Shown here in pieces: positions 7,770-16,251 of a stretch of DNA of 20,000 nucleotides (positions are counted from its first letter, which is position 1; every line of letters starts with the position of its first letter). Below the pieces are notes generated by a model. That model saw only the letters and a list, made by a program, of their open reading frames with translations. It was not told the DNA's origin and did not search any database. Both the position numbers and the translations under genes were made by a program. Source of the stretch: an uncultured virus (IMG/VR IMGVR_UViG_3300034279_000149) (lineage: Duplodnaviria; Heunggongvirae; Uroviricota; Caudoviricetes); the IMG/VR virus record IMGVR_UViG_3300034279_000149; one strand, given 5' to 3'.

Positions 7770-8182
7770 TGAAGTTAACGGTTCAACCAGTAGGAATACA
7801 GTACGTCCATAAGATATGGCCTTTAGTAGAAGAACTGTTTGAAAAAGCAAACAAACACGATACTGGGGACTACACCTTAGATCAGATTAGAGGTTTACTG
7901 GCTACAGGTTCCTGGGTATTATTAGTAGCAACGGACGAAGAAAATGTTATCCACGGTGCGGCATCGGTGAGTTTTTACAATATGCCTAACTATCGAGTTG
8001 GATTTATTACTGCAATGGCTGGTAAAGCAATTGTGAATGAAGATGTTTATGGGCAGGTTTGTAGCTTTATAAAGGCGAACGGAGCTACACGAGTTCAATG
8101 CGCTGCTAGAGAATCTGCTGCACGGCTGTACAAGCAAGTTGGTATGGAAGAACGCCACATTATTATGGAAACGAAGCTATGA
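7769..8182 (+). CDS. GNAT-fold-like virion assembly protein (positional analogue of P22 gp14 / T7 gp13)
   Basis: 137 aa with FITAMAGK...FIKANGATRVQCAARESAARLYKQVGM, resembling GNAT motifs A and B. Coupled to both neighbouring ejection genes (TAATG and ATGA). Confidence 0.65.
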   Translation: MKLTVQPVGIQYVHKIWPLVEELFEKANKHDTGDYTLDQIRGLLATGSWVLLVATDEENVIHGAASVSFYNMPNYRVGFITAMAGKAIVNEDVYGQVCSFIKANGATRVQCAARESAARLYKQVGMEERHIIMETKL

Positions 8183-10569
8183 GCTTTTTAAAATCTAAAC
8201 ACAGCGGTTGGACTTGGGACTTAAAACGCACACCTTTTGCAGGTGGAGGCTCAGGTGGTGGCGGACCCACTCAAACTACGGTTTCTAATACCAATATTCC
8301 TGAGTATGCTCGCCCCTATGTAGAGACAATGCTTGGCACTGCCCAGCAACAAATATATAACTATGGGCCCCCCGATGCTCAAGGTAACAGAACAGTTACA
8401 GGCTTTAAACCATATATACCTTACGGCGCTACGGTAGATGCCTATGGAAATATTACTAATACAGCACAAGAACAAGCCAGCGCAGCAGTAGCTGGATTTA
8501 GCCCATTACAGCAACAAGCTCAAACTAGTGTAGGTCAGCTACGGGTTCCTGGACAGTTTGATACAGGCACAGGATTTGCCGCTTTAGGTGGTATCGGCGC
8601 AGCTAATATTGCAGAACGTGCCGCTGGTGCAGGGGAACAATATAACCAAATGGCCACAAATCCATATGCGCAACAAGCGTTTATGTCGCCTTATATTCAA
8701 AACGCATTGCAGCCACAGCTTCAAGAGATGCAGCGTCAGTATGACATTACAGGTTTGCAAGAGCGTGGTAAAGCCGTTGGTGCTGGTGCATTTGGTGGAA
8801 CTCGTCAAGCACTCATGCAAGCTGAAAACCAGCGTAATAAGAACATGGCTATGAACCAAGCGATTGGCTCAGGTTATCAAAATGCTTTCCAAGCAGCACA
8901 ACAAGCCCAGCAGTTTGGTGCTAACTTAGGTCTTCAAGGCTACGGTACTGCCCTTCAAGGTACAGGTCAACTGGCTCAAGCTGGTAGAACATTAGCCGAT
9001 ATTGGCGGTGCCCAGCTTCAAGCCCAGCAAGGCATTATTGGATTGCAATCTCAAATGGGTGGACAACAGCAGCAACTTGAGCAACAACGTATTAATCAGG
9101 CTATCCAAAATTACGCTATGCAGCAGCAGTACCCACAACAACAGCTGGCATTTATGTCTGGATTAACTCGTGGTTTACCATTGCAATCGGCTACTACACA
9201 GTCTTATCAAGCTGCTCCTTCGGCGATTTCACAAATTGGTGGACTTGGCTTAACTGGCGCTGCAGCATATGGCATGATGAAAAAAGAAGGCGGCATCATT
9301 AAGTCTTATGCCGAGGGTGGTGCAATTGAGGGTACAGAAGACTTTGCAAGTGGTGGTATTACTCGCAAGGTAATGTTAAATCCTGATAAGTATTCCACAC
9401 AGATGATTGACCGTGGTGTTAAAAGCGGGGTTATTGACGACATCGTTGGTCTAGCTGCACTGCAGCAGAAAAATCAAGAAACTAAGGATCGTCAAGCTGC
9501 CGCTGCTATGGCACAGGGTACACCCCCTACGGTTAAGGACCAGATCCTAGCCGAAGCCCAGCAGCTTCAAGGTATTGACAACGCACCTAGCAATCTACCT
9601 ACTGAATACGCTGGTGGCGGTATTGTTGCTTTCCAAGAAGGCGGCAGCACTATGGGTGGGTTTGAAACCGAACTTAGCCCACAAGCGCTTGCTGCGGACG
9701 AAGAACGTCGTAAAGAAGCAGAGAAACGGTCGTATGCTTCCATGCTTGGCTATACAAAACCAGAGGCAGCAGCAGCCCCAGCTGAAGTCCCTGCTAAACC
9801 CGACACAGGTATTCGGATTCTCCCCGATGAACCTAAAGCTAAGCCCTCAATAATGAATGCGCCAGCGGCAGCACCTGCTAAAGATACTGGTATGGGTGCG
9901 GGGGGTATTGATGACTTAATTCGTCAATCTATTGGTGATATAAGAACAAGCGCACAAGCATCTAAAGACGCACGTAAAGAAGCTAAGTTAATGACTATGC
10001 TTCAGGCTGGTCTCGGTATTGCAAGCGGAACATCACCTTATGCTCTAGCTAACTTAAAAGGCGCTATGCCTGCTCTGCAAGGCTATCAAGAAGAAATGCG
10101 TGGTATTCGTGGTGACGAGGCTAAACAAATTGCTCAGATCGCTGCACTCAACCTCAAAGGTGCAGAGCTTAAGCAAGAGCTTGATAAGCTGGGTATTACT
10201 AAAGAACGCTATGAATCACAAAATAAAGTAGATGCAGCAAGAGCTCAATACTTACTTGGCGGTAAAGGTGCAGGACAAGGTATTGCTAATTACGGACCTG
10301 TTACCAACGAAGCCTATTTAAAACTTAAAGATCAGTACGCAAACTTTGCGCTTAATCCTAAAGCAAACCCAGCATTTTATGCGTCGTTACCTCAACCTGT
10401 TAAAGATGCTTTAAAAGCAAAAGTCGGCACACCTTCTTATGAGCGGGGTTTAGAAAAGGCTCGAGAGATTGCCAACCAACAATTTGCTGCCGATATAAAT
10501 GCAATGCGTACACTATCAGCTAGAAAAGGTCCGAGCGCTTCAGCCCCTTATAATCCAGCACTAGAGTAA
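8179..10569 (+). CDS. DNA ejection/pilot protein (P22 gp7-like N-terminal part with a long C-terminal extension)
   Basis: 20-aa leader followed by AGGGSGGGG, an IPEYARPY motif, a Gln/Ala-rich helical region with GAFGGTR, and Gly-rich amphipathic segments. Confidence 0.7.
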   Translation: MSFLKSKHSGWTWDLKRTPFAGGGSGGGGPTQTTVSNTNIPEYARPYVETMLGTAQQQIYNYGPPDAQGNRTVTGFKPYIPYGATVDAYGNITNTAQEQASAAVAGFSPLQQQAQTSVGQLRVPGQFDTGTGFAALGGIGAANIAERAAGAGEQYNQMATNPYAQQAFMSPYIQNALQPQLQEMQRQYDITGLQERGKAVGAGAFGGTRQALMQAENQRNKNMAMNQAIGSGYQNAFQAAQQAQQFGANLGLQGYGTALQGTGQLAQAGRTLADIGGAQLQAQQGIIGLQSQMGGQQQQLEQQRINQAIQNYAMQQQYPQQQLAFMSGLTRGLPLQSATTQSYQAAPSAISQIGGLGLTGAAAYGMMKKEGGIIKSYAEGGAIEGTEDFASGGITRKVMLNPDKYSTQMIDRGVKSGVIDDIVGLAALQQKNQETKDRQAAAAMAQGTPPTVKDQILAEAQQLQGIDNAPSNLPTEYAGGGIVAFQEGGSTMGGFETELSPQALAADEERRKEAEKRSYASMLGYTKPEAAAAPAEVPAKPDTGIRILPDEPKAKPSIMNAPAAAPAKDTGMGAGGIDDLIRQSIGDIRTSAQASKDARKEAKLMTMLQAGLGIASGTSPYALANLKGAMPALQGYQEEMRGIRGDEAKQIAQIAALNLKGAELKQELDKLGITKERYESQNKVDAARAQYLLGGKGAGQGIANYGPVTNEAYLKLKDQYANFALNPKANPAFYASLPQPVKDALKAKVGTPSYERGLEKAREIANQQFAADINAMRTLSARKGPSASAPYNPALE

Positions 10570-10578
10570 GGAATAACC

Positions 10579-13500
10579 ATGGCGCGAGTAGAAATCCCAG
10601 GAGTAGGTATTGTCCAGTTTCCTGATAGTATGCCCCGTGACGAAATTATGGCTCGGGCAGAAGCCATGCAGTCTCAAGCTAACAAACCGCTACTTGATCC
10701 TAGGGACTTGGGTGCTGGACAGCTACTCAAAGGTGGTTTTAGCCGTGGCATAGAGGGTTTAAAAGGCACAGCCCTTGACCTTATTCCAGCACTGGGTGGA
10801 TCTCTTTTTGGTAAAGACGAATACGCTAAAGAGCAGATGCAGGAATACCGAGACCGTATGGCGGCTGAAGAAGCTATTAATCCTACGGCGTATAAAGGCT
10901 TTAAAGACATTCAGGGTATTGGTGATTTTGGTGGGTTCGTTGCTGAAACTACTGGTGAAGTTGCAACCGACATTGCCTCATTCTTGCTAGGCGCTGGTGC
11001 TGGTACTCTTGCAGGTAAGGCGATTGCTAAGAAAAGCGCAGCCGCAGCATTAAAAGAGAAGTTGCCTGAGCAGGTGGCTAAAAGACAATTAGCAGAAGAT
11101 GTAGCTAGTAAACTAGAACAGCGTGTTTTAAGCAGTGCTGCAGCGCAAGGCGCCAATATTGGCAGCACCGTTGGTCTGTTTGGCACGTCCATGGGTCAGA
11201 GTATCCCTGAGACCCTTAACAGCATTTATGAAGAAACACAGGATTTAGCCCCTGGATTAGCGATTACGTTTGGTTCGCTTAAAGGCGCATTAGATACATA
11301 CTTACCTAGCAAGATCTTAAAACAACTTGGACCCGCAGGTAAGGACCGTGTTGCAGCAGCAATGCTAGAGAAATCTGACCTTGTTCCAGTTAACTTTAAG
11401 CGTGCCTTCCTTACTGAACTTGCTAAAACTAGTGGCGGCGAAGCAATAACTGAATCTACACAGCAAGCGATTGACATAGTTGCAGCACAAGTAGCTGGTG
11501 GTAAAGATCCGTTCTTCTCGCCAAAAAACATTGATAACATCTTGTTTGCAGGTCTTAAAGGTGCAGTAGGTGGTGGTACATTTGGTGCTCCTGGCGCAGC
11601 CATGGAAGCTAGCCGTGCTAAGTCCGCCGCCGCAGCTGAAATTAATCGCCGTGCACAAGCTGGCGAAATTACAAAAGAAGACCAACAACAGCAGCTTCTT
11701 GCCTTAGAATACAAACCGTTTACTCCTGTAGCTTTACCTGATGGCACCGTTATCACGACCCAGGAAGAACTCGATGCGTATGAACAGCGTCAGTTTGACA
11801 GTAGGTTTGCCCCACAAGATGCGGATAAAGCGGCTCCTTTACAGTTGGGTATGTCTACACCAACTATGCCTGTAGGACCAGAAGGCCAGGTATACCCAGA
11901 CATCCAGACAATGCGGGCTGAGCAAGAGCGTCAAGCAGCTCAAGCAGAACAACAAGCGTTTGAAGCACGTACTGCACCGCAAAATGTTGAAGGTTATCAA
12001 CCTGATCTGTTTCCGCAAGAACTAGAGTTAGCTCAGGCACAAGAAAACGTAGGTGGTTTACCCCCTACAATCGACCAAGCACTAGCTGGACCACCTACTG
12101 GACCCCTTGCTTCACGGGAGTTTACAACCTCTGGGCTTACACCAGATGTAGCTTCCGCCGAATTTAAAACGGTGCTTGATGCAGATTCTTTGAAGGGAAC
12201 TGGTCTCACACCACAGTCTGGTTTTTACAAAAAACTTCTTAACAAAGACTTAACTGATCCCGCTGACCAGGCGGCTGTACGTGACATACTTGTACAAGTA
12301 AGAACAAACCCCAATTTATCCAATTCGACTAAACAAGCCGTTGAGAGTCTTGCATTACAGGCATTTGGTGCGCTTGGGCAGCAGACTAATGTTGTCGGAC
12401 CCCGAGGCGGTATAAGGAGAGACGTAAATTATGGAAGAAATCAACCTGGATCACCTGTCAGTGAAGCAGATCGAGAGAGCGTTCAAGTACCTAGCGAATC
12501 CGTACGAGAGGAATCCACCGCAGGAACTGGAGAACTTGGACAAGAAGGAGTGGTACCAACTGGAGGCACTACTAGTGAGCTTGGAGACGGAAAAACAATT
12601 CAGTCAGGTACATTAGAGGATCAGATAAATGAGTCCAAAACTGAGGCTAAAACTGCTAAGCCTGCTGCTGAAGCTACCCCTGCCAAAAAAGCTACTGCAA
12701 AAGCTACTCCGCCTGCTGCTCCTAAAAAATTAACCAGACAAGAACGTGGGTTCTTAGAGGATCAAGTACTTAGCTTAAGAGCTGACTATAGTCTAGCTAA
12801 AGACCCAGAAACTAAGGCAGCCATTAAAGCAGAGATTGATGCTACTGAGCGTGATCTTAAACAAGGTAAGGCACAAGTAGGTGAAGGTGCCGCTGCGTTT
12901 ACAGGTGATGTAGCTAAGCTGGCAAAAGATTTACGTGCTGCCCTAGATAAGATGGGACTTGGCGGTATTGGCTTAAGATTAGAAAAGGCGCTTACTACTA
13001 CAGAGGGTACAAGTGCCCAAGGTATGTATGCTAATAAGGTGATTCAAGTTGCTTTAAACGCAAACGATCCAACTTATACTCTTAACCACGAAGCTCTGCA
13101 TGCTATGAAAGAGATGGGATTCTTCTCCAATGCGGATTGGAACATCTTAAGCAATATGGCACGTAATACTTGGATGAAGCAGTACGGTATTGAAGCCAAG
13201 TACCCTGACCTTTCTAAAGAATCACAGATTGAAGAAGCTATTGCTGAAGCCTTTGCAACTTTCCAACAGCAGTCATCACAAACCCAAAGCATATTAACTA
13301 AGGCTATAAACGCTTTACGTAGGCTTGGTAACTTCTTGCGTGGGTATGGCTATCAAGTATCTGAAGATATTCTCGGCAAAGCTGCTAGTGGGCAGTTGGC
13401 TAAAGATCGTGCCAACATAATCAAAGAATTCAACAACTACCTAGATACAATCCCCAACAGCGAGGTTAAGTATCAGGTTGCCGCACAGAAAGAAATCTTT

Positions 13501-16251
13501 ACAGGTGTAGATAAGGTTATTCGTGCCGTACCTAACTTAAGCAATAATCAGAAAGCTGCAATAAGCGAGGGTATAAAAGTTGCAGGTGATGCGGGCAAGT
13601 CGGCTATTCTGTCTTTACTGCCTATGCACGCTTTGGGTGAGGTAGCTGATGGGGTATTTCCCCGCCTTGGCACAACGTTCAATCGTTTAATTAACCAGCG
13701 TAGTGGCTATCAAGATACCCTAAATCGTGGGATCGACTCCGTTATTACTGAGGCTAAACGGGCAATTAAAGCCAACCCAGAACAGCATAAAGCGTTTGAT
13801 ACGCTGGTTAACACAAGCACTGTTGAGGAAGTAGACCCAACCAACCTACGTTCTAAATACGAGAACGACCCAGAGAAACTAGCTACCTACGACAAACTTG
13901 TTAAAGAGTACACCAAGCTAGATAAAGTTTGGAAAGACCTTTATGTCACCATGCGTGGTGGCTACAAGCAGATGTACGAAGAAGTTAAGAAGGCGATTAC
14001 TACTCGAATCGACGATACTGATTTAGATGCAACTACCAAAAAAAGCGTTAAAGATAGCATTTTATTAAAGCTCGCTGAGCAGGGCATGATTGAGCCCTAC
14101 TTTGGTTTAGGTCGTGAAGGTTCTTATTGGCTTGCTGCTGACTATAAAGATAAGTCTGGACAGCAACAAACTACCGTAGAAGCGTTTAAGTCTGACTACG
14201 AGCGTAAGAATCGCATGGAACAGTTGCAAGCCATGGGTGCTACTCGTATTGAGCCCTATGCCAACGTAGCTGCGGTTAACTATCGCCGTGCACCTTCTGG
14301 CTCGTTTGTAAGTAGTGTTCTGAATATTTTAGAAACAAACAAACCTAAAGACGATGTTGCTGCTAAGCGCTTTGATACAGCCATCGACGAGATGATGCGT
14401 CTGTTCCTAACCACTTTACCTGAGACTGCATTTGCGCAGTCGTTCCAAAAGCGTAAAGGTACTGCTGGTTACATGGAAGATACTATCGGCGTCTTTGAAC
14501 GTAAGATGCGTAACAGTGCACATCAGGTAGCTAATATGGTTTACAGCCCTAAATTAACTGGGGTGGTAGATACAATGCGGGAGCAGACAGCTACAGCGGG
14601 TGCTAGTGGACAAGGTAATGCGCTTCAAAAAGAATACCTATCCGAGTTTGAAAAGCACCTGGATTATGTACTTAGCCCAACCAAGAATGACATCGGCAGT
14701 ATTCTGACCTCGGCAGCGTTTACCTACACTCTCGGCTTTAACGTATCTTCTGCGTTAGTCAACATGGCTAACATACCAATGATCGTAGCTCCATATCTTA
14801 AGGGTAAATACGGCGATGCTTCCGTAGCCCGTGCAATAGGTGATGCGACTAAGGCGTTTACTGGTAGCGGAACAAAAACGAACATGCCTGTAATCGGTGC
14901 TGACGGTAGAACTACCGCTATGCGTGTAATGCCTTCTATTACTAACTATGCACCTGATTCAGAAATGGGTAAGCGTTACGCTACGTTGATTCGTATTGGT
15001 AATGAGCAGGGACAGTTCAACCGTTCACAGCTTTATGAGATCCTGAATGCCGACACCCGCACGGGAGTAATGGCTAAGTTCAACGCTATATCTGGCTGGA
15101 TGTTCCACCACGGCGAACGTATGAACCGTGAAGTTACCCTAGTATCTGCGTACAACCTTGAGCTGGATCGCCTTAAAAAGCAGGGTATTACTGGACCAGA
15201 GGCAGAAGCCCAGGCAGCGCAAACCGCTATCTATACAACTGAGTTAACAAACGGTGGTATCTCCGCCGCTGCGGCCCCACGCATTGCTCAGAATTCCCTT
15301 GGTAAGATCTTTTTCATGTACAAGCGGTACGGTATTTCGATGTACTACATGATGTTTAAGACCGCCAAAGAAGCCTTGAAAGGCGAAACTCCAGAGGTGC
15401 GTCAAGCCGCATTTAAGCAATTAGGTGGAATCGTCGGTATGTCTGCATTGATGGCTGGTGCACAGGGTATCCCCATGTTCGGTGCATTGTCCTTGGTATA
15501 TAGCTTGTTTACCGATGAAGATGAAGACAATTTAGATGCAGTTACTCAGAAGACTTTAGGCGATTTCTTATACAAAGGTCCTTTGGAGTACCTAACCAAC
15601 CTGTCGATTGCTGGTCGTATTACGCTAAACGACTTAATCATTCGTGATGCCCCACAAAGCAACGCATCGACCTTTACCCAGCAGGTGATACAAGCCATAG
15701 GCGGACCTGTATTCGGTGTTGTTGACCGTGTATCTAGGGGTTACAGCAAGATAAACGAGGGTAATTTTGGGCGAGGCATAGAAGACTTATTACCATCCGC
15801 TGTTTCCAACGGATTTAAAGCGCTTCGTTATGGCTCTGAAGGTACTAAGACGTTACGTGGTGATCCTATTACTGGAGAAGTTAGCCTCTTTAACGTGGTT
15901 GGTCAGGCACTTGGTTTTGCCCCTGCCGATTACACCCGTCAGGTTGAGATCAACGCCCGTGAAAAAGGTATTGATAAAGCAATTAGCACGCAAGCCAGTA
16001 AGCAGAAGCAGAAGTATTACATGGCTAAACGTGAAGGCGATATAGAGGGTATGGAAGAAGCTCGGGAAAAGCTACTTGAAATTGGTGCTAAACACCCTGG
16101 TTTAGAGATTACCCCTGGCAATGTGAATGATGTACTGAACCGATCTATGAAGGCGCAGGAACGTGCGACTAACGATATGATTAACGGGGCTAGGTACAAC
16201 AAGAAGCGCCTTGAAGAAATCAAAGCCAGCCTAGCTGAATACGAAGATTAA
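10579..16251 (+). CDS. Large internal virion/ejection protein (polyvalent-protein-like) with a zincin HExxH motif
   Basis: TAAGGA SD. 1890 aa with Gly/Ala hydrophobic hairpins in the N-terminal part, HEALH at residues 837-841 and a downstream EEAIAE, and hydrophobic C-terminal segments. Last gene of the late operon. Confidence 0.75.
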   Translation: MARVEIPGVGIVQFPDSMPRDEIMARAEAMQSQANKPLLDPRDLGAGQLLKGGFSRGIEGLKGTALDLIPALGGSLFGKDEYAKEQMQEYRDRMAAEEAINPTAYKGFKDIQGIGDFGGFVAETTGEVATDIASFLLGAGAGTLAGKAIAKKSAAAALKEKLPEQVAKRQLAEDVASKLEQRVLSSAAAQGANIGSTVGLFGTSMGQSIPETLNSIYEETQDLAPGLAITFGSLKGALDTYLPSKILKQLGPAGKDRVAAAMLEKSDLVPVNFKRAFLTELAKTSGGEAITESTQQAIDIVAAQVAGGKDPFFSPKNIDNILFAGLKGAVGGGTFGAPGAAMEASRAKSAAAAEINRRAQAGEITKEDQQQQLLALEYKPFTPVALPDGTVITTQEELDAYEQRQFDSRFAPQDADKAAPLQLGMSTPTMPVGPEGQVYPDIQTMRAEQERQAAQAEQQAFEARTAPQNVEGYQPDLFPQELELAQAQENVGGLPPTIDQALAGPPTGPLASREFTTSGLTPDVASAEFKTVLDADSLKGTGLTPQSGFYKKLLNKDLTDPADQAAVRDILVQVRTNPNLSNSTKQAVESLALQAFGALGQQTNVVGPRGGIRRDVNYGRNQPGSPVSEADRESVQVPSESVREESTAGTGELGQEGVVPTGGTTSELGDGKTIQSGTLEDQINESKTEAKTAKPAAEATPAKKATAKATPPAAPKKLTRQERGFLEDQVLSLRADYSLAKDPETKAAIKAEIDATERDLKQGKAQVGEGAAAFTGDVAKLAKDLRAALDKMGLGGIGLRLEKALTTTEGTSAQGMYANKVIQVALNANDPTYTLNHEALHAMKEMGFFSNADWNILSNMARNTWMKQYGIEAKYPDLSKESQIEEAIAEAFATFQQQSSQTQSILTKAINALRRLGNFLRGYGYQVSEDILGKAASGQLAKDRANIIKEFNNYLDTIPNSEVKYQVAAQKEIFTGVDKVIRAVPNLSNNQKAAISEGIKVAGDAGKSAILSLLPMHALGEVADGVFPRLGTTFNRLINQRSGYQDTLNRGIDSVITEAKRAIKANPEQHKAFDTLVNTSTVEEVDPTNLRSKYENDPEKLATYDKLVKEYTKLDKVWKDLYVTMRGGYKQMYEEVKKAITTRIDDTDLDATTKKSVKDSILLKLAEQGMIEPYFGLGREGSYWLAADYKDKSGQQQTTVEAFKSDYERKNRMEQLQAMGATRIEPYANVAAVNYRRAPSGSFVSSVLNILETNKPKDDVAAKRFDTAIDEMMRLFLTTLPETAFAQSFQKRKGTAGYMEDTIGVFERKMRNSAHQVANMVYSPKLTGVVDTMREQTATAGASGQGNALQKEYLSEFEKHLDYVLSPTKNDIGSILTSAAFTYTLGFNVSSALVNMANIPMIVAPYLKGKYGDASVARAIGDATKAFTGSGTKTNMPVIGADGRTTAMRVMPSITNYAPDSEMGKRYATLIRIGNEQGQFNRSQLYEILNADTRTGVMAKFNAISGWMFHHGERMNREVTLVSAYNLELDRLKKQGITGPEAEAQAAQTAIYTTELTNGGISAAAAPRIAQNSLGKIFFMYKRYGISMYYMMFKTAKEALKGETPEVRQAAFKQLGGIVGMSALMAGAQGIPMFGALSLVYSLFTDEDEDNLDAVTQKTLGDFLYKGPLEYLTNLSIAGRITLNDLIIRDAPQSNASTFTQQVIQAIGGPVFGVVDRVSRGYSKINEGNFGRGIEDLLPSAVSNGFKALRYGSEGTKTLRGDPITGEVSLFNVVGQALGFAPADYTRQVEINAREKGIDKAISTQASKQKQKYYMAKREGDIEGMEEAREKLLEIGAKHPGLEITPGNVNDVLNRSMKAQERATNDMINGARYNKKRLEEIKASLAEYED
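12431..12616 (+). CDS. Small 61-aa protein overprinted in the +1 frame of the 1890-aa gene
   Basis: ATG start with TAAGGAG at 12413-12419. The product looks like two amphipathic helices, while the host frame over this stretch is a low-complexity linker. Confidence 0.65.
   Translation: MEEINLDHLSVKQIERAFKYLANPYERNPPQELENLDKKEWYQLEALLVSLETEKQFSQVH

What the first reader, a model, noticed from the sequence alone, without database searches (positions are those of the whole stretch)
12413..12616. Nested +1-frame gene with its own ribosome binding site inside the giant ejection protein gene
Seen: TAAGGAG (12413-12419) lies 11 nt before an ATG opening a 61-codon ORF (MEEINLDHLSVKQIERAFKYLANPYERNPPQELENLDKKEWYQLEALLVSLETEKQFSQVH). 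The product has the pattern of amphipathic helix - Pro linker - amphipathic helix. Over the same bases the 1890-aa frame is a G/S/E/T linker and uses ATA-AGG-AGA codons to accommodate the SD, which look uncommon in this gene by eye. Inference: this is a real overprinted gene that standard gene callers would miss. It may be a chaperone, inhibitor or loading factor for the large protein; it sits shortly upstream of the HExxH domain.
Basis: partly seen in the sequence, partly recalled or inferred. Interest (0 to 1): 0.85.

Follow-up and report, generated by a model that had tools for sequence, protein, structure and literature searches.

The report
Conserved hidden gene inside phage giant
A 61-amino-acid protein gene is written in a shifted reading frame inside the giant injected-protein gene of a large group of uncultured phages; it is real, old and belongs to no catalogued family, and its conserved tail resembles a bacterial protease tag, though its job is untested.

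Summary
Confirmed. The +1-frame ORF (12431-12616) in the 1890-aa LPD39/DarB-like ejection gene is a real gene. 57 of 58 loci chosen by the host protein alone and covering the linker carry it; so do 52 of 52 loci chosen by distant homologues, in hosts only 21-33% identical. Over the same bases pN/pS is 0.16-0.25 in the nested frame and 1.9-2.8 in the host frame; SD plus start occurs in 82 of 85 loci versus 11% of controls. No Pfam, PHROG or fold match. The tail is x-[VLI]-H/Q in 86 of 86, resembling the Lon C-terminal His degron. A free-standing subfamily exists outside giant genes, and the peptide does not track the HExxH module. Best guess (0.38): a late, CIII-like host-protease decoy protecting the giant; rival: a Ulx-like loading chaperone. 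Cultured DarB-like giants hold three other unannotated nested families, one also ending in LH.

The parts
12413..12419 (+). Shine-Dalgarno TAAGGAG of the nested gene; its TAA is also an in-frame stop of the nested frame
   Evidence: SD plus start in 82 of 85 family loci vs 364 of 3302 control windows; start region less structured than 200 of 200 shuffles
12425..12427 (+). In-frame TAA one codon before the nested ATG, which argues against a frameshift fusion
   Evidence: 33 of 82 loci have an in-frame stop within 5 codons of the start, 12 directly before it
12431..12616 (+). Nested +1-frame gene, 61 aa, helix-Pro linker-helix
12590..12616 (+). Conserved C-terminal tail E54-K-x-x-S-x-V-H-stop, Lon-degron-like
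   Evidence: E54 in all rows of the nested-only alignment; penultimate V/L/I 86 of 86, last H 70 and Q 16 of 86
10579..16251 (+). Host gene: 1890-aa large polyvalent, DarB-like putative ejection protein
   Evidence: Pfam LPD39 at 999-1155; PHROG 10089 DarB-like at 1170-1880, PHROG 6958 virion structural at 50-154
10579..11613 (+). Host N-terminal Gly/Ala-rich helical domain (aa 1-345), upstream of the nested gene
13087..13101 (+). Host HExxH (HEALH, aa 837-841), zincin-like metallopeptidase motif in a swappable module
   Evidence: PMC5512222 passages
13573..16218 (+). Host LPD39 plus conserved DarB-like C-terminal region shared by the family hosts that are not truncated
8179..10569 (+). Upstream neighbour, DNA ejection protein-like, placing the giant in the virion ejection module
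   Evidence: PHROG 4287, E 2.7e-6

Best explanation
SHOWN (about 0.97): this is an independently initiated, protein-coding gene under purifying selection, kept in the +1 frame of the first long linker of giant LPD39/DarB-like ejection genes across a very diverged family of uncultured phages. INFERRED: it is translated from the same late mRNA as the giant via its own SD (no internal sigma-70 promoter was seen). It folds as a small amphipathic helical hairpin, probably an oligomer, and exposes a C-terminal E-K-x-x-S-x-[VLI]-H tail. MOST LIKELY MECHANISM (0.38): the tail docks on the host's Lon-type AAA+ protease. The peptide then acts as a competitive substrate or modulator, as lambda CIII does for FtsH, and shields the largely unstructured giant ejection protein from proteolysis until it is packaged. 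Nesting fixes dosage, timing and co-inheritance with the protein it protects.
For: Gene: 57 of 58 host-selected loci covering the linker; 52 of 52, always +1; pN/pS 0.16 vs 2.75 in 80 pairs; 0.25 vs 1.86 in 150 pairs; SD plus start 82 of 85; nested identity above host identity in 902 of 945 pairs. Tail under nested-frame selection: the host-silent third base is A in 86 of 86 (GCA/ACA/CCA/TCA), fixing H/Q; penultimate V/L/I in 86 of 86. Background: 5 of 569 phage ORFs end in [LVI]H. A terminal His is the principal Lon determinant in the x-L/I-L/I/V-H degron class, which includes substrates ending TVH, TLH and SLH (PMC11986505); LarA regulates Lon through a terminal VH (PMC10665427); the 54-residue amphipathic CIII is both inhibitor and substrate of FtsH (PMC1838920). 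An apparently separate nested family in the Parlo, Pavtok and ZX1 giants also ends in LH. A partner other than the giant is favoured by a 98%-identical peptide beside host domains only 22-62% identical and by free-standing homologues (49.9 bits vs a nested-only HMM, best shuffle 7.9).
Against: No binding or expression data. The antepenultimate residue is mostly polar (Q 22, R 21, P 16, S 13, L 10 of 86), so the strict degron is met by only a minority. 16 of 86 end in Q, and H versus Q follows the host codon (Leu versus Val/Ile), so part of the His conservation may come from the host frame. A degron could equally just time the removal of a chaperone. The hosts are unknown; the only lead is one MAG contig titled Ca. 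Methylopumilus, so the presence of a Lon with this preference is assumed. L088 lacks the gene, so it is not indispensable.
Confidence: 0.38

Rival explanations
1. Dedicated chaperone or loading factor for the giant (works like P1 Ulx). It binds the nascent giant, for example its hydrophobic Gly/Ala-rich helices, keeps it soluble, helps it into the head, and is then removed through its His tail.
For: Nested in 86 of 86 phage loci. Identity tracks the host N-terminal (0.62) and C-terminal (0.63) regions. Ulx 'aids DarB localization' (PMC9024508 Table 1; PMC10695390). Other nested families are module-specific: family 2 precedes a helicase-methylase module in 5 of 5 giants scanned, and the TnpV-like family 3 precedes an Eco57I-SNF2 module in 3 of 3.
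Against: Free-standing copies without a giant. Near-identical peptides accompany diverged host domains. No similarity to Ulx (-0.9 bits). The correlations can come from linkage alone.
Confidence: 0.3
2. Inhibitor of the giant's own zincin metallopeptidase, with the terminal His entering the zinc site to prevent premature autoprocessing.
For: HExxH lies downstream in 82 of 82 hosts with at least 1000 residues after the nested stop. Autoproteolysis is proposed for these domains (PMC5512222).
Against: Spearman 0.03 with the peptidase module; 98% peptide identity against 22% module identity; distance 118-1023 aa; L088 has HExxH but no nested gene; Q-ending members; free-standing copies.
Confidence: 0.1
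3. A late-expressed effector with another bacterial target (anti-defence, superinfection or lysis timing) that simply occupies a permissive linker; the tail only sets its half-life.
For: Free-standing homologues in three different cellular-looking contexts (YHYH, GYD/EndoVII/IS, small-protein neighbours). The host-frame linker tolerates change (pN/pS above 1).
Against: The position is fixed in the same linker of hosts only 21-33% identical. Not found in 800 other sampled Proteobacteria genomes.
Confidence: 0.18
4. Alternative C-terminus of the giant made by programmed +1 frameshifting rather than by its own initiation.
For: In the PBC5 record a family-3 nested ORF is fused to the N-terminal half of the giant. 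3 of 85 loci lack a clear SD plus start.
Against: In-frame stops within 5 codons of the start in 33 of 82 loci, directly before ATG in 12; ATG/GTG/TTG at SD spacing in 82 of 85. The PBC5 case looks like a single frameshift in that record: the giant continues in another frame.
Confidence: 0.03
5. Chance open frame in a low-complexity linker.
For: About 10% of random 50-codon +1 stretches are open.
Against: Frame-specific selection, invariant Trp 20 codons before the last residue in 86 of 86, conserved SD, start and stop.
Confidence: 0.01

Closest known systems
Embedded Rz1 within Rz (spanins)
   Same: A small gene wholly embedded in a larger late gene (PMC9144972 passage); same strand and +1 frame in lambda (recalled).
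   Different: No lipoprotein signal or Cys, not in a lysis cassette; the host is a 1900-3000-aa ejection protein; binding between the two products is not known.
Lambda CIII (FtsH inhibitor/substrate), T4 PinA (Lon inhibitor), Caulobacter LarA (Lon activator)
   Same: Small amphipathic helical proteins acting on an AAA+ protease; LarA works through a terminal Val-His.
   Different: No sequence or profile match; overprinted in a virion gene rather than free-standing; activity untested.
C-terminal His Lon degron class x-L/I-L/I/V-H (Cragan et al. 2025, PMC11986505)
   Same: Terminal His in 70 of 86 and penultimate V/L/I in 86 of 86.
   Different: Third-last residue usually polar; 16 of 86 end in Gln; defined with Yersinia Lon, while these phages' hosts are unknown.
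Phage P1 Ulx / IddB (Dar system)
   Same: Ulx is a small helper for DarB incorporation encoded next to darB; iddB is annotated internal to ddrB.
   Different: Ulx is a separate gene with no similarity to this family; iddB is on the opposite strand to ddrB.
Large polyvalent proteins (Iyer et al. 2017; LPD39, MPTase)
   Same: The host gene is a member: LPD39 above cut-off and an HExxH motif.
   Different: The paper's main text has no 'overlap' and no nested-gene use of 'nested'; a second-frame gene is not described in the passages seen.

Membership tests
Functional nested (overprinted) gene | ORF kept open in homologues while the host frame is also open | tested here: met
   57 of 58 host-selected loci covering the linker; host frame open in 86 of 86
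Functional nested (overprinted) gene | Purifying selection on its own frame | tested here: met
   pN/pS 0.16-0.25 vs host 1.9-2.8; pairs are not independent
Functional nested (overprinted) gene | Own conserved initiation signals | tested here: met
   82 of 85 vs 11% control; a narrower first window gave 67 of 85 vs 8%
Functional nested (overprinted) gene | Translation detected | not testable with these tools
   needs Ribo-seq or proteomics
C-terminal His Lon degron | Terminal His | tested here: met
   window ends in H; 70 of 86 loci
C-terminal His Lon degron | Penultimate L/I/V | tested here: met
   86 of 86
C-terminal His Lon degron | Antepenultimate L/I | tested here: not met
   L in 10 of 86; the window has Q; several tested substrates in PMC11986505 are also polar there
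C-terminal His Lon degron | His-dependent degradation by Lon | not testable with these tools
   bench assay
P1 Ulx | Sequence similarity to Ulx | tested here: not met
   -0.9 bits against the family HMM
P1 Ulx | Needed for loading the giant into virions | not testable with these tools
   no cultured phage with this family found
Rz1 o-spanin | Lipoprotein signal with Cys, nested in Rz | tested here: not met
   no Cys and no hydrophobic N-terminus in the window peptide; host is not Rz
Any catalogued Pfam/PHROG family | Profile match shared by members | tested here: not met
   64 members scanned; no family matched more than 2, none above a curated cut-off for the window peptide
Any known fold family | Structural match | tested here: inconclusive
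   best Z 4.9, 58 aligned, rmsd 3.9; no BFVD hit at E<=0.001
Large polyvalent / DarB-like ejection proteins (host gene) | LPD domain plus conserved C-terminal region in the virion module | tested here: met
   LPD39 E 4.8e-14, PHROG 10089 E 5e-70, neighbour PHROG 4287
DarB antirestriction proper (host gene) | Methyltransferase and helicase module | tested here: not met
   no such Pfam domain in the 1890-aa protein; the PHROG label covers the shared C-terminus only

The most novel reading that the evidence does not exclude
Giant polyvalent ejection genes carry an unannotated second-frame accessory proteome: several unrelated small genes, each fixed in the linker before or after a given module. 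This 61-aa family, with the independently LH-tailed family of Parlo, Pavtok and ZX1, is a phage-encoded Lon-engaging module that sets when the giant is protected, packaged or released.
Probability: 0.3. Interest if true: 0.88.

Novelty: new variant of a known kind. Interest (0 to 1): 0.7.

Why it matters
Nested same-strand genes in tailed phages are known mainly from lysis cassettes. Here an uncatalogued family (about 68 clusters at 50% identity) is fixed inside giant virion genes whose products share only 21-33% identity, and in the overlap it is the small gene, not the giant, that carries the selection. Three further unannotated nested families sit in cultured DarB-like phages, so current annotations of these genomes are missing genes. 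How multi-thousand-residue ejection proteins survive, fold and get loaded into heads is an open question. These genes are concrete candidates that can be knocked out with host-frame-silent start changes, and the His tail gives a direct protease assay.

Tried and rejected
Complex prediction of the peptide (A3) with host residues 1-612 (A2): no verdict, score 0.00, not evidence either way; the C-terminal domain and Lon were not tried. No RNA holder was listed. ESM Atlas gave no usable hit for two members. Fold searches gave only generic helical matches. tblastn of two members against cultured phages gave nothing significant; the family HMM on 12 cultured-phage loci plus L088 gave at most 8 bits, and nothing in seven more fetched loci. 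Not found in 800 other sampled Proteobacteria genomes. No sigma-70 promoter or terminator at 11800-12900. Viral scans with P0199 and P0179 found no loci, so the context of most of the 68 clusters is unseen. Homology with the LH-ending family 4 is not demonstrable: 4.0 bits, reached by 111 of 2000 shuffles; hhalign probability 10%. P1 iddB was rejected as a precedent because it is antisense. Two long repeat proteins among the 70 hits (P0128 inspected, P0155 not) were set aside, and seven N-extended hits were left out of A3. No whole genome is held for the window. Literature: (DarB, nested gene, overlapping, phage, internal virion protein; at least 4 terms) gave 0 papers; one search gave 1 unrelated review; searches listed nothing on this by title.

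Full report
Observation. The sequence shows TAAGGAG at 12413-12419, an 11-nt spacer, ATG at 12431 and TAG ending at 12616. The 61 codons lie in the +1 frame over residues 618-679 of ORF 10579-16251. Two in-frame stops precede the ATG (12413-15, 12425-27). The start region folds less stably than all 200 shuffles (z +2.8). AGG and AGA are minority Arg codons (6 and 8 of 88); ATA is 19 of 96 Ile.

Context. The host matches LPD39 (999-1155) and PHROG 10089 'DarB-like' (1170-1880) but has no methylase or helicase domain. It follows a virion structural gene and a DNA-ejection-like gene and precedes a convergent DUF927 primase/helicase. This fits the ejection module of a podovirus-like phage (inference); a giant LPD protein of phi24B was found in virions and proposed as an ejection protein (10.64898/2026.04.10.717836, passages). 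Close host homologues lie on contigs of up to about 60-72 kb. The only host lead is one MAG contig titled Ca. Methylopumilus, which may be a binned phage.

Is it a gene? To avoid circularity I fetched loci by host C-terminal motifs only (80 kept of 144) and scanned all six frames with a family HMM. 57 of 80 have exactly one hit, always in the +1 frame inside the giant. 22 of the other 23 have a giant truncated at the contig's 5' end (the five longest inspected), and one full-length host, L088, lacks it. A profile search found 70 representatives at E<=0.001, 68 of them short family-like proteins. Two distant members retrieved 32 and 20 loci. All 52 are +1-nested in a long host ORF, 1900-3000 aa where complete, and 21-33% identical to the window's host where a match exists; sampled hosts carry LPD39 and PHROG 10089 with varied cargo. 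Across 86 distinct loci the host frame is open in all and Trp lies 20 codons before the last residue in all. SD plus ATG/GTG/TTG is present in 82 of 85 versus 364 of 3302 control windows. My first pass, with a narrower window and one SD variant fewer, gave 67 of 85 versus 275 of 3310. On the gap-free last 24 codons, pN/pS is 0.16 (nested) versus 2.75 (host) for 80 close pairs and 0.25 versus 1.86 for 150 more distant pairs; pairs share ancestry, so these are descriptive. Base entropy is lowest at host codon position 3 in the overlap (0.92) and highest there in the host's C-terminus (1.59). Start regions are less structured than controls (-4.7 versus -6.9 kcal/mol, 67 versus 662 windows). An open frame of this length alone is unremarkable (823 of 8306).

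The protein. AlphaFold2 gives helices 11-22 and 38-58 with a Pro linker (pLDDT 78, pTM 0.54). Conserved positions are mostly hydrophobic (L9, A17, L21, L33, L36, W41, L44, L48, L51) plus E54 and the tail. No Pfam or PHROG family is shared by more than 2 of 64 members, and the fold searches are inconclusive. The tail is x-[VLI]-H in 70 and x-[VLI]-Q in 16 of 86. The host-silent third base under this residue is A in 86 of 86, so the nested frame selects it, although H versus Q follows host Leu versus Val/Ile. Only 5 of 569 ordinary ORFs in these loci end in [LVI]H. Terminal His is the main determinant of a widespread Lon degron class (PMC11986505: abstract, passages, sections 8 and 12 read, supplements not seen), and LarA activates Lon through a terminal Val-His (PMC10665427, passages). 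The match is partial: the third-last residue is Leu in only 10 of 86.

What does it partner? Among 35 full-length hosts, peptide identity tracks the host N-terminal (Spearman 0.62) and C-terminal (0.63) regions but not the HExxH module (0.03). L001 has a 98%-identical peptide with host domains 22-62% identical. HExxH is present in 82 of 82 hosts, but 118-1023 residues downstream. A subfamily (P0198/P0199) is free-standing: in 3 of 3 metagenome contigs the would-be host frame is closed, no SD is evident and the neighbours differ and look cellular. It scores 49.9 bits against an HMM of nested members only, with the best of 2000 shuffles at 7.9. So the protein can be maintained without a giant.

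Wider pattern. Cultured phages lack this family in my searches, but their DarB-like giants hold other unannotated +1 ORFs with SD-like signals. Family 2 (120-131 aa) is in 45A6, Skulduggery, Parlo, D274, 1.232.O and ZX1, just before a helicase-methylase module in the five scanned. Family 3 (102-108 aa, weak TnpV match below cut-off) is in Atu_ph08, LASTA, POI1126 and Pavtok, before an Eco57I-SNF2 module in the three scanned. Family 4 (70-76 aa) is in Pavtok, Parlo and ZX1, with 68-74% matches in Stean and PEp14, and ends in LH. Homology of family 4 to the window's family is not demonstrable. I found these before looking up earlier scan notes. Those notes report the same general theme on other DNA (8 shown of 10; unchecked AI notes, not independent support). 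Searches by this sequence and by 'Lon degron histidine' returned nothing.

Mechanism. Shown: an independent, selected, nested gene. Inferred: co-translation with the giant from late mRNA, a helical hairpin, and a protease-facing tail. I favour a CIII-like decoy or modulator of a Lon-type protease that protects the giant before packaging (0.38; CIII per PMC1838920 passages). Next is a Ulx-like loading chaperone with timed removal (0.30; PMC9024508 and PMC10695390 passages), then an unrelated effector (0.18), a metallopeptidase inhibitor (0.10; PMC5512222 passages), a frameshift product (0.03) and chance (0.01).

Novelty. Embedded late genes are a known kind (Rz1; PMC9144972 passage). This family is uncatalogued, and I found no paper on nested genes in such giants; the library lacks most subscription papers. 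Verdict: real; new variant of a known kind; interest 0.70, held back by the untested function, the lack of a cultured carrier and the theme's earlier appearance in this scan.

Noticed in passing
L095:6222-6581, L094:9277-9663, L157:7501-7887, L158:7501-7893, L159:7501-7893, L160:7501-7887: Family 2: unannotated 120-131-aa +1 nested gene in giants of six cultured phages, 32-36% identical to the 45A6 copy, just before the helicase-methylase module; no Pfam/PHROG family.
   Followed up: partly
L092:7150-7455, L161:6387-6710, L162:6276-6590, L163:5519-5833: Family 3: 102-108-aa +1 nested gene with a weak TnpV match (E 2e-4 to 3e-3 in two of four), before the Eco57I-SNF2 module.
   Followed up: partly
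L163:3047-3274, L157:5452-5664, L160:5836-6045: Family 4: 70-76-aa +1 nested gene ending in LH, after the N-terminal region of the Pavtok, Parlo and ZX1 giants; also in Stean and PEp14; homology to the window family unresolved.
   Followed up: partly
L166:556-7098 (PBC5): The annotated N-terminal DarB-like CDS ends in a family-3 nested ORF while the giant continues in another frame; probably a frameshift in the record, and it explains the PHROG 938 match.
   Followed up: partly
L167:283-459, L168:537-713, L169:684-860: Free-standing homologues of the 61-aa family, about 90% identical to P0199, with different neighbours and no SD; two share about 45 upstream bases.
   Followed up: partly
L088:2794-9765: Full-length homologous giant with HExxH but no nested gene; Pro/Ala repeats lie in the region where it would be expected.
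   Followed up: partly
L155 giant 15886-24297 (MinM2), host aa ~738; L095:5682-5831; L163:11474-11695: Further single +1 ORFs with SD-like signals in cultured giants (69, 50 and 74 aa); conservation untested.
   Followed up: no
window 11998-12012 (host aa 474-478): QPDLF in the host linker, with QxxLF/MF in the host consensus; resembles a sliding-clamp-binding motif (label recalled, not from a call).
   Followed up: no
window 10775-10990 and 15830-16045: Two other 71-codon same-strand out-of-frame ORFs inside the giant gene; conservation not tested.
   Followed up: no
L165:18078-18476 (P1 iddB): P1 iddB, 'internal to ddrB', is antisense to ddrB, so it is not the same arrangement.
   Followed up: yes
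L149 / G001:C13: A 55-kb contig with the giant and the nested gene lies in a MAG titled Ca. Methylopumilus; possible host lead or binning artefact.
   Followed up: partly
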